Assembly: GCA_052390115.1 (NCBI GenBank)
Contig: JBQTHE010000035.1
Location: forward strand, 13,088 to 77,087
Direction: 5' to 3'
Length of the DNA stretch: 64,000 nucleotides
Origin: Pseudonocardiales bacterium
Lineage (GTDB): Bacteria; Actinomycetota; Actinomycetes; Mycobacteriales; Pseudonocardiaceae
Content: a report on this DNA, generated by a model with database tools, continued
The DNA's letters: not shown here

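What the first reader, a model, noticed from the sequence alone, without database searches (positions are those of the whole stretch)
29977..63863. 34-kb island: a valanimycin-type N-N/azoxy toolkit grafted onto dedicated fatty-acid and polyketide machinery
The island holds one member of almost every protein family known from the valanimycin (vlm) pathway.
- MprF-C/DUF2156 aminoacyl-tRNA-dependent transferase (VlmA type), 29977-30993.
- ACAD-fold oxygenase (58250-59386) plus flavin reductase (55297-55887), VlmH/VlmR type.
- Di-iron oxygenase (54320-55300) and small membrane protein (55902-56414), the types reported for VlmB/VlmO.
- DAG-kinase-like kinase (62729-63715) and MmgE/PrpD protein (61227-62732), VlmJ/VlmK type.
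- SARP regulator (VlmI type) and MFS exporter (VlmF type).

Instead of an amino-acid decarboxylase, the amine seems to come from lipid metabolism. That part comprises KASIII/ACP/KS/AccD, an ALDH-type reductase, an omega-aminotransferase and a His-box desaturase.

A second operon adds a KS-AT-DH-KR-ACP PKS, a discrete ACP, an AMP-ligase, an LLM oxidoreductase and two thioesterases.

Fourteen genes from 63715 to 49175 lie on one strand. Six junctions are ATGA or TGATG overlaps (62729-62732, 56918-56921, 55297-55300, 54320-54323, 53199-53202, 52969, 51752-55).

Predicted product: a long-chain, probably unsaturated, alkyl azoxy or hydrazine compound linked to a dehydro-amino acid. Aliphatic azoxy clusters are known (valanimycin, elaiomycin, azodyrecin). 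To my knowledge the added PKS module, the desaturase, the missing SerRS and the adjacent aberrant tRNA are not part of the described versions.
Basis: partly seen in the sequence, partly recalled or inferred. Interest (0 to 1): 0.9.

Follow-up and report, generated by a model that had tools for sequence, protein, structure and literature searches.

The report, continued
Noticed in passing
L099:3245-3339, L105:4443-4539, L119:1551-1648, L170:1157-1254 (metagenome contigs): A 95-98 nt subfamily of the same aberrant tRNA-Ser-like RNA lies outside any recognisable azoxy cluster. The copies checked share the family's acceptor stem, D arm and T arm, and the three tested (L105, L119, L170) are not called tRNA by Rfam. 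Neighbours include FUR plus catalase-peroxidase, a sigma-70 factor, a cytidine-deaminase-fold protein, and an SRPBCC protein with an Acyl_transf_3 protein.
   Followed up: partly
L161:1855-1943 (minus strand) and L161:2153-3784: An aberrant tRNA-Ser-like copy sits about 200 nt from a divergent seryl-tRNA synthetase gene. The context looks housekeeping (amino-acid permease, CysD/CysN-like genes, adenylosuccinate-lyase-like gene). None of the window's cluster proteins hits this contig.
   Followed up: partly
41 of 80 related loci, e.g. L001:13759-15030, L038:15167-16474, L056:12361-13641: A SerRS gene (VlmL type) is encoded inside most related azoxy clusters. In the closest named relative (L001) it sits between KS and the desaturase. 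The window has an AccD-like carboxyltransferase at that position instead.
   Followed up: partly
window 29995-63863 compared with L001/L082 and L204: - **Permuted order.** The window's gene order looks like a circular permutation of that in the Pseudonocardiaceae MAG. The break falls between the tRNA-like gene and VlmA.
- **Further rearrangement in L204.** This relative's VlmO-type protein is 91% identical. Its cluster is rearranged again: a DDE transposase lies upstream of the ALDH, the PrpD-kinase pair is moved and inverted, and it has two tRNA-like copies.
   Followed up: partly
L008:3903-3980: This is a 78-nt family member in which the anticodon-equivalent arm is almost entirely deleted. 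It lies 20 nt upstream of a full-length 91-nt copy.
   Followed up: no
L016:7128-7217 and L023:7143-7232: Weak hits to the tRNA-like model (21.8 and 20.3 bits, E 0.18-0.4) lie about 500 nt upstream of the VlmH-type gene in clusters that have only the core genes. They could be a diverged second element or chance.
   Followed up: no
window 26900-29710 (+): A 936-aa ORF with very high G+C abuts the left edge of the island. It has no significant Pfam domain, only a sub-threshold sacsin match. The near-identical contig L081 has the same gene upstream of VlmA.
   Followed up: no
window 31050-31262 (+); L081:2961-3170; L082:11023-11178: A small ORF of 51-70 aa is called directly downstream of the VlmA-type gene in the window's closest relatives. 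It has no Pfam hit, and tblastn found it in none of the 80 genome loci (L001-L080).
   Followed up: no
window 10208-12802 (-): An 864-aa protein with a Helicase_C_3 domain and a C-terminal WYL domain lies in the housekeeping flank, far from the cluster.
   Followed up: no
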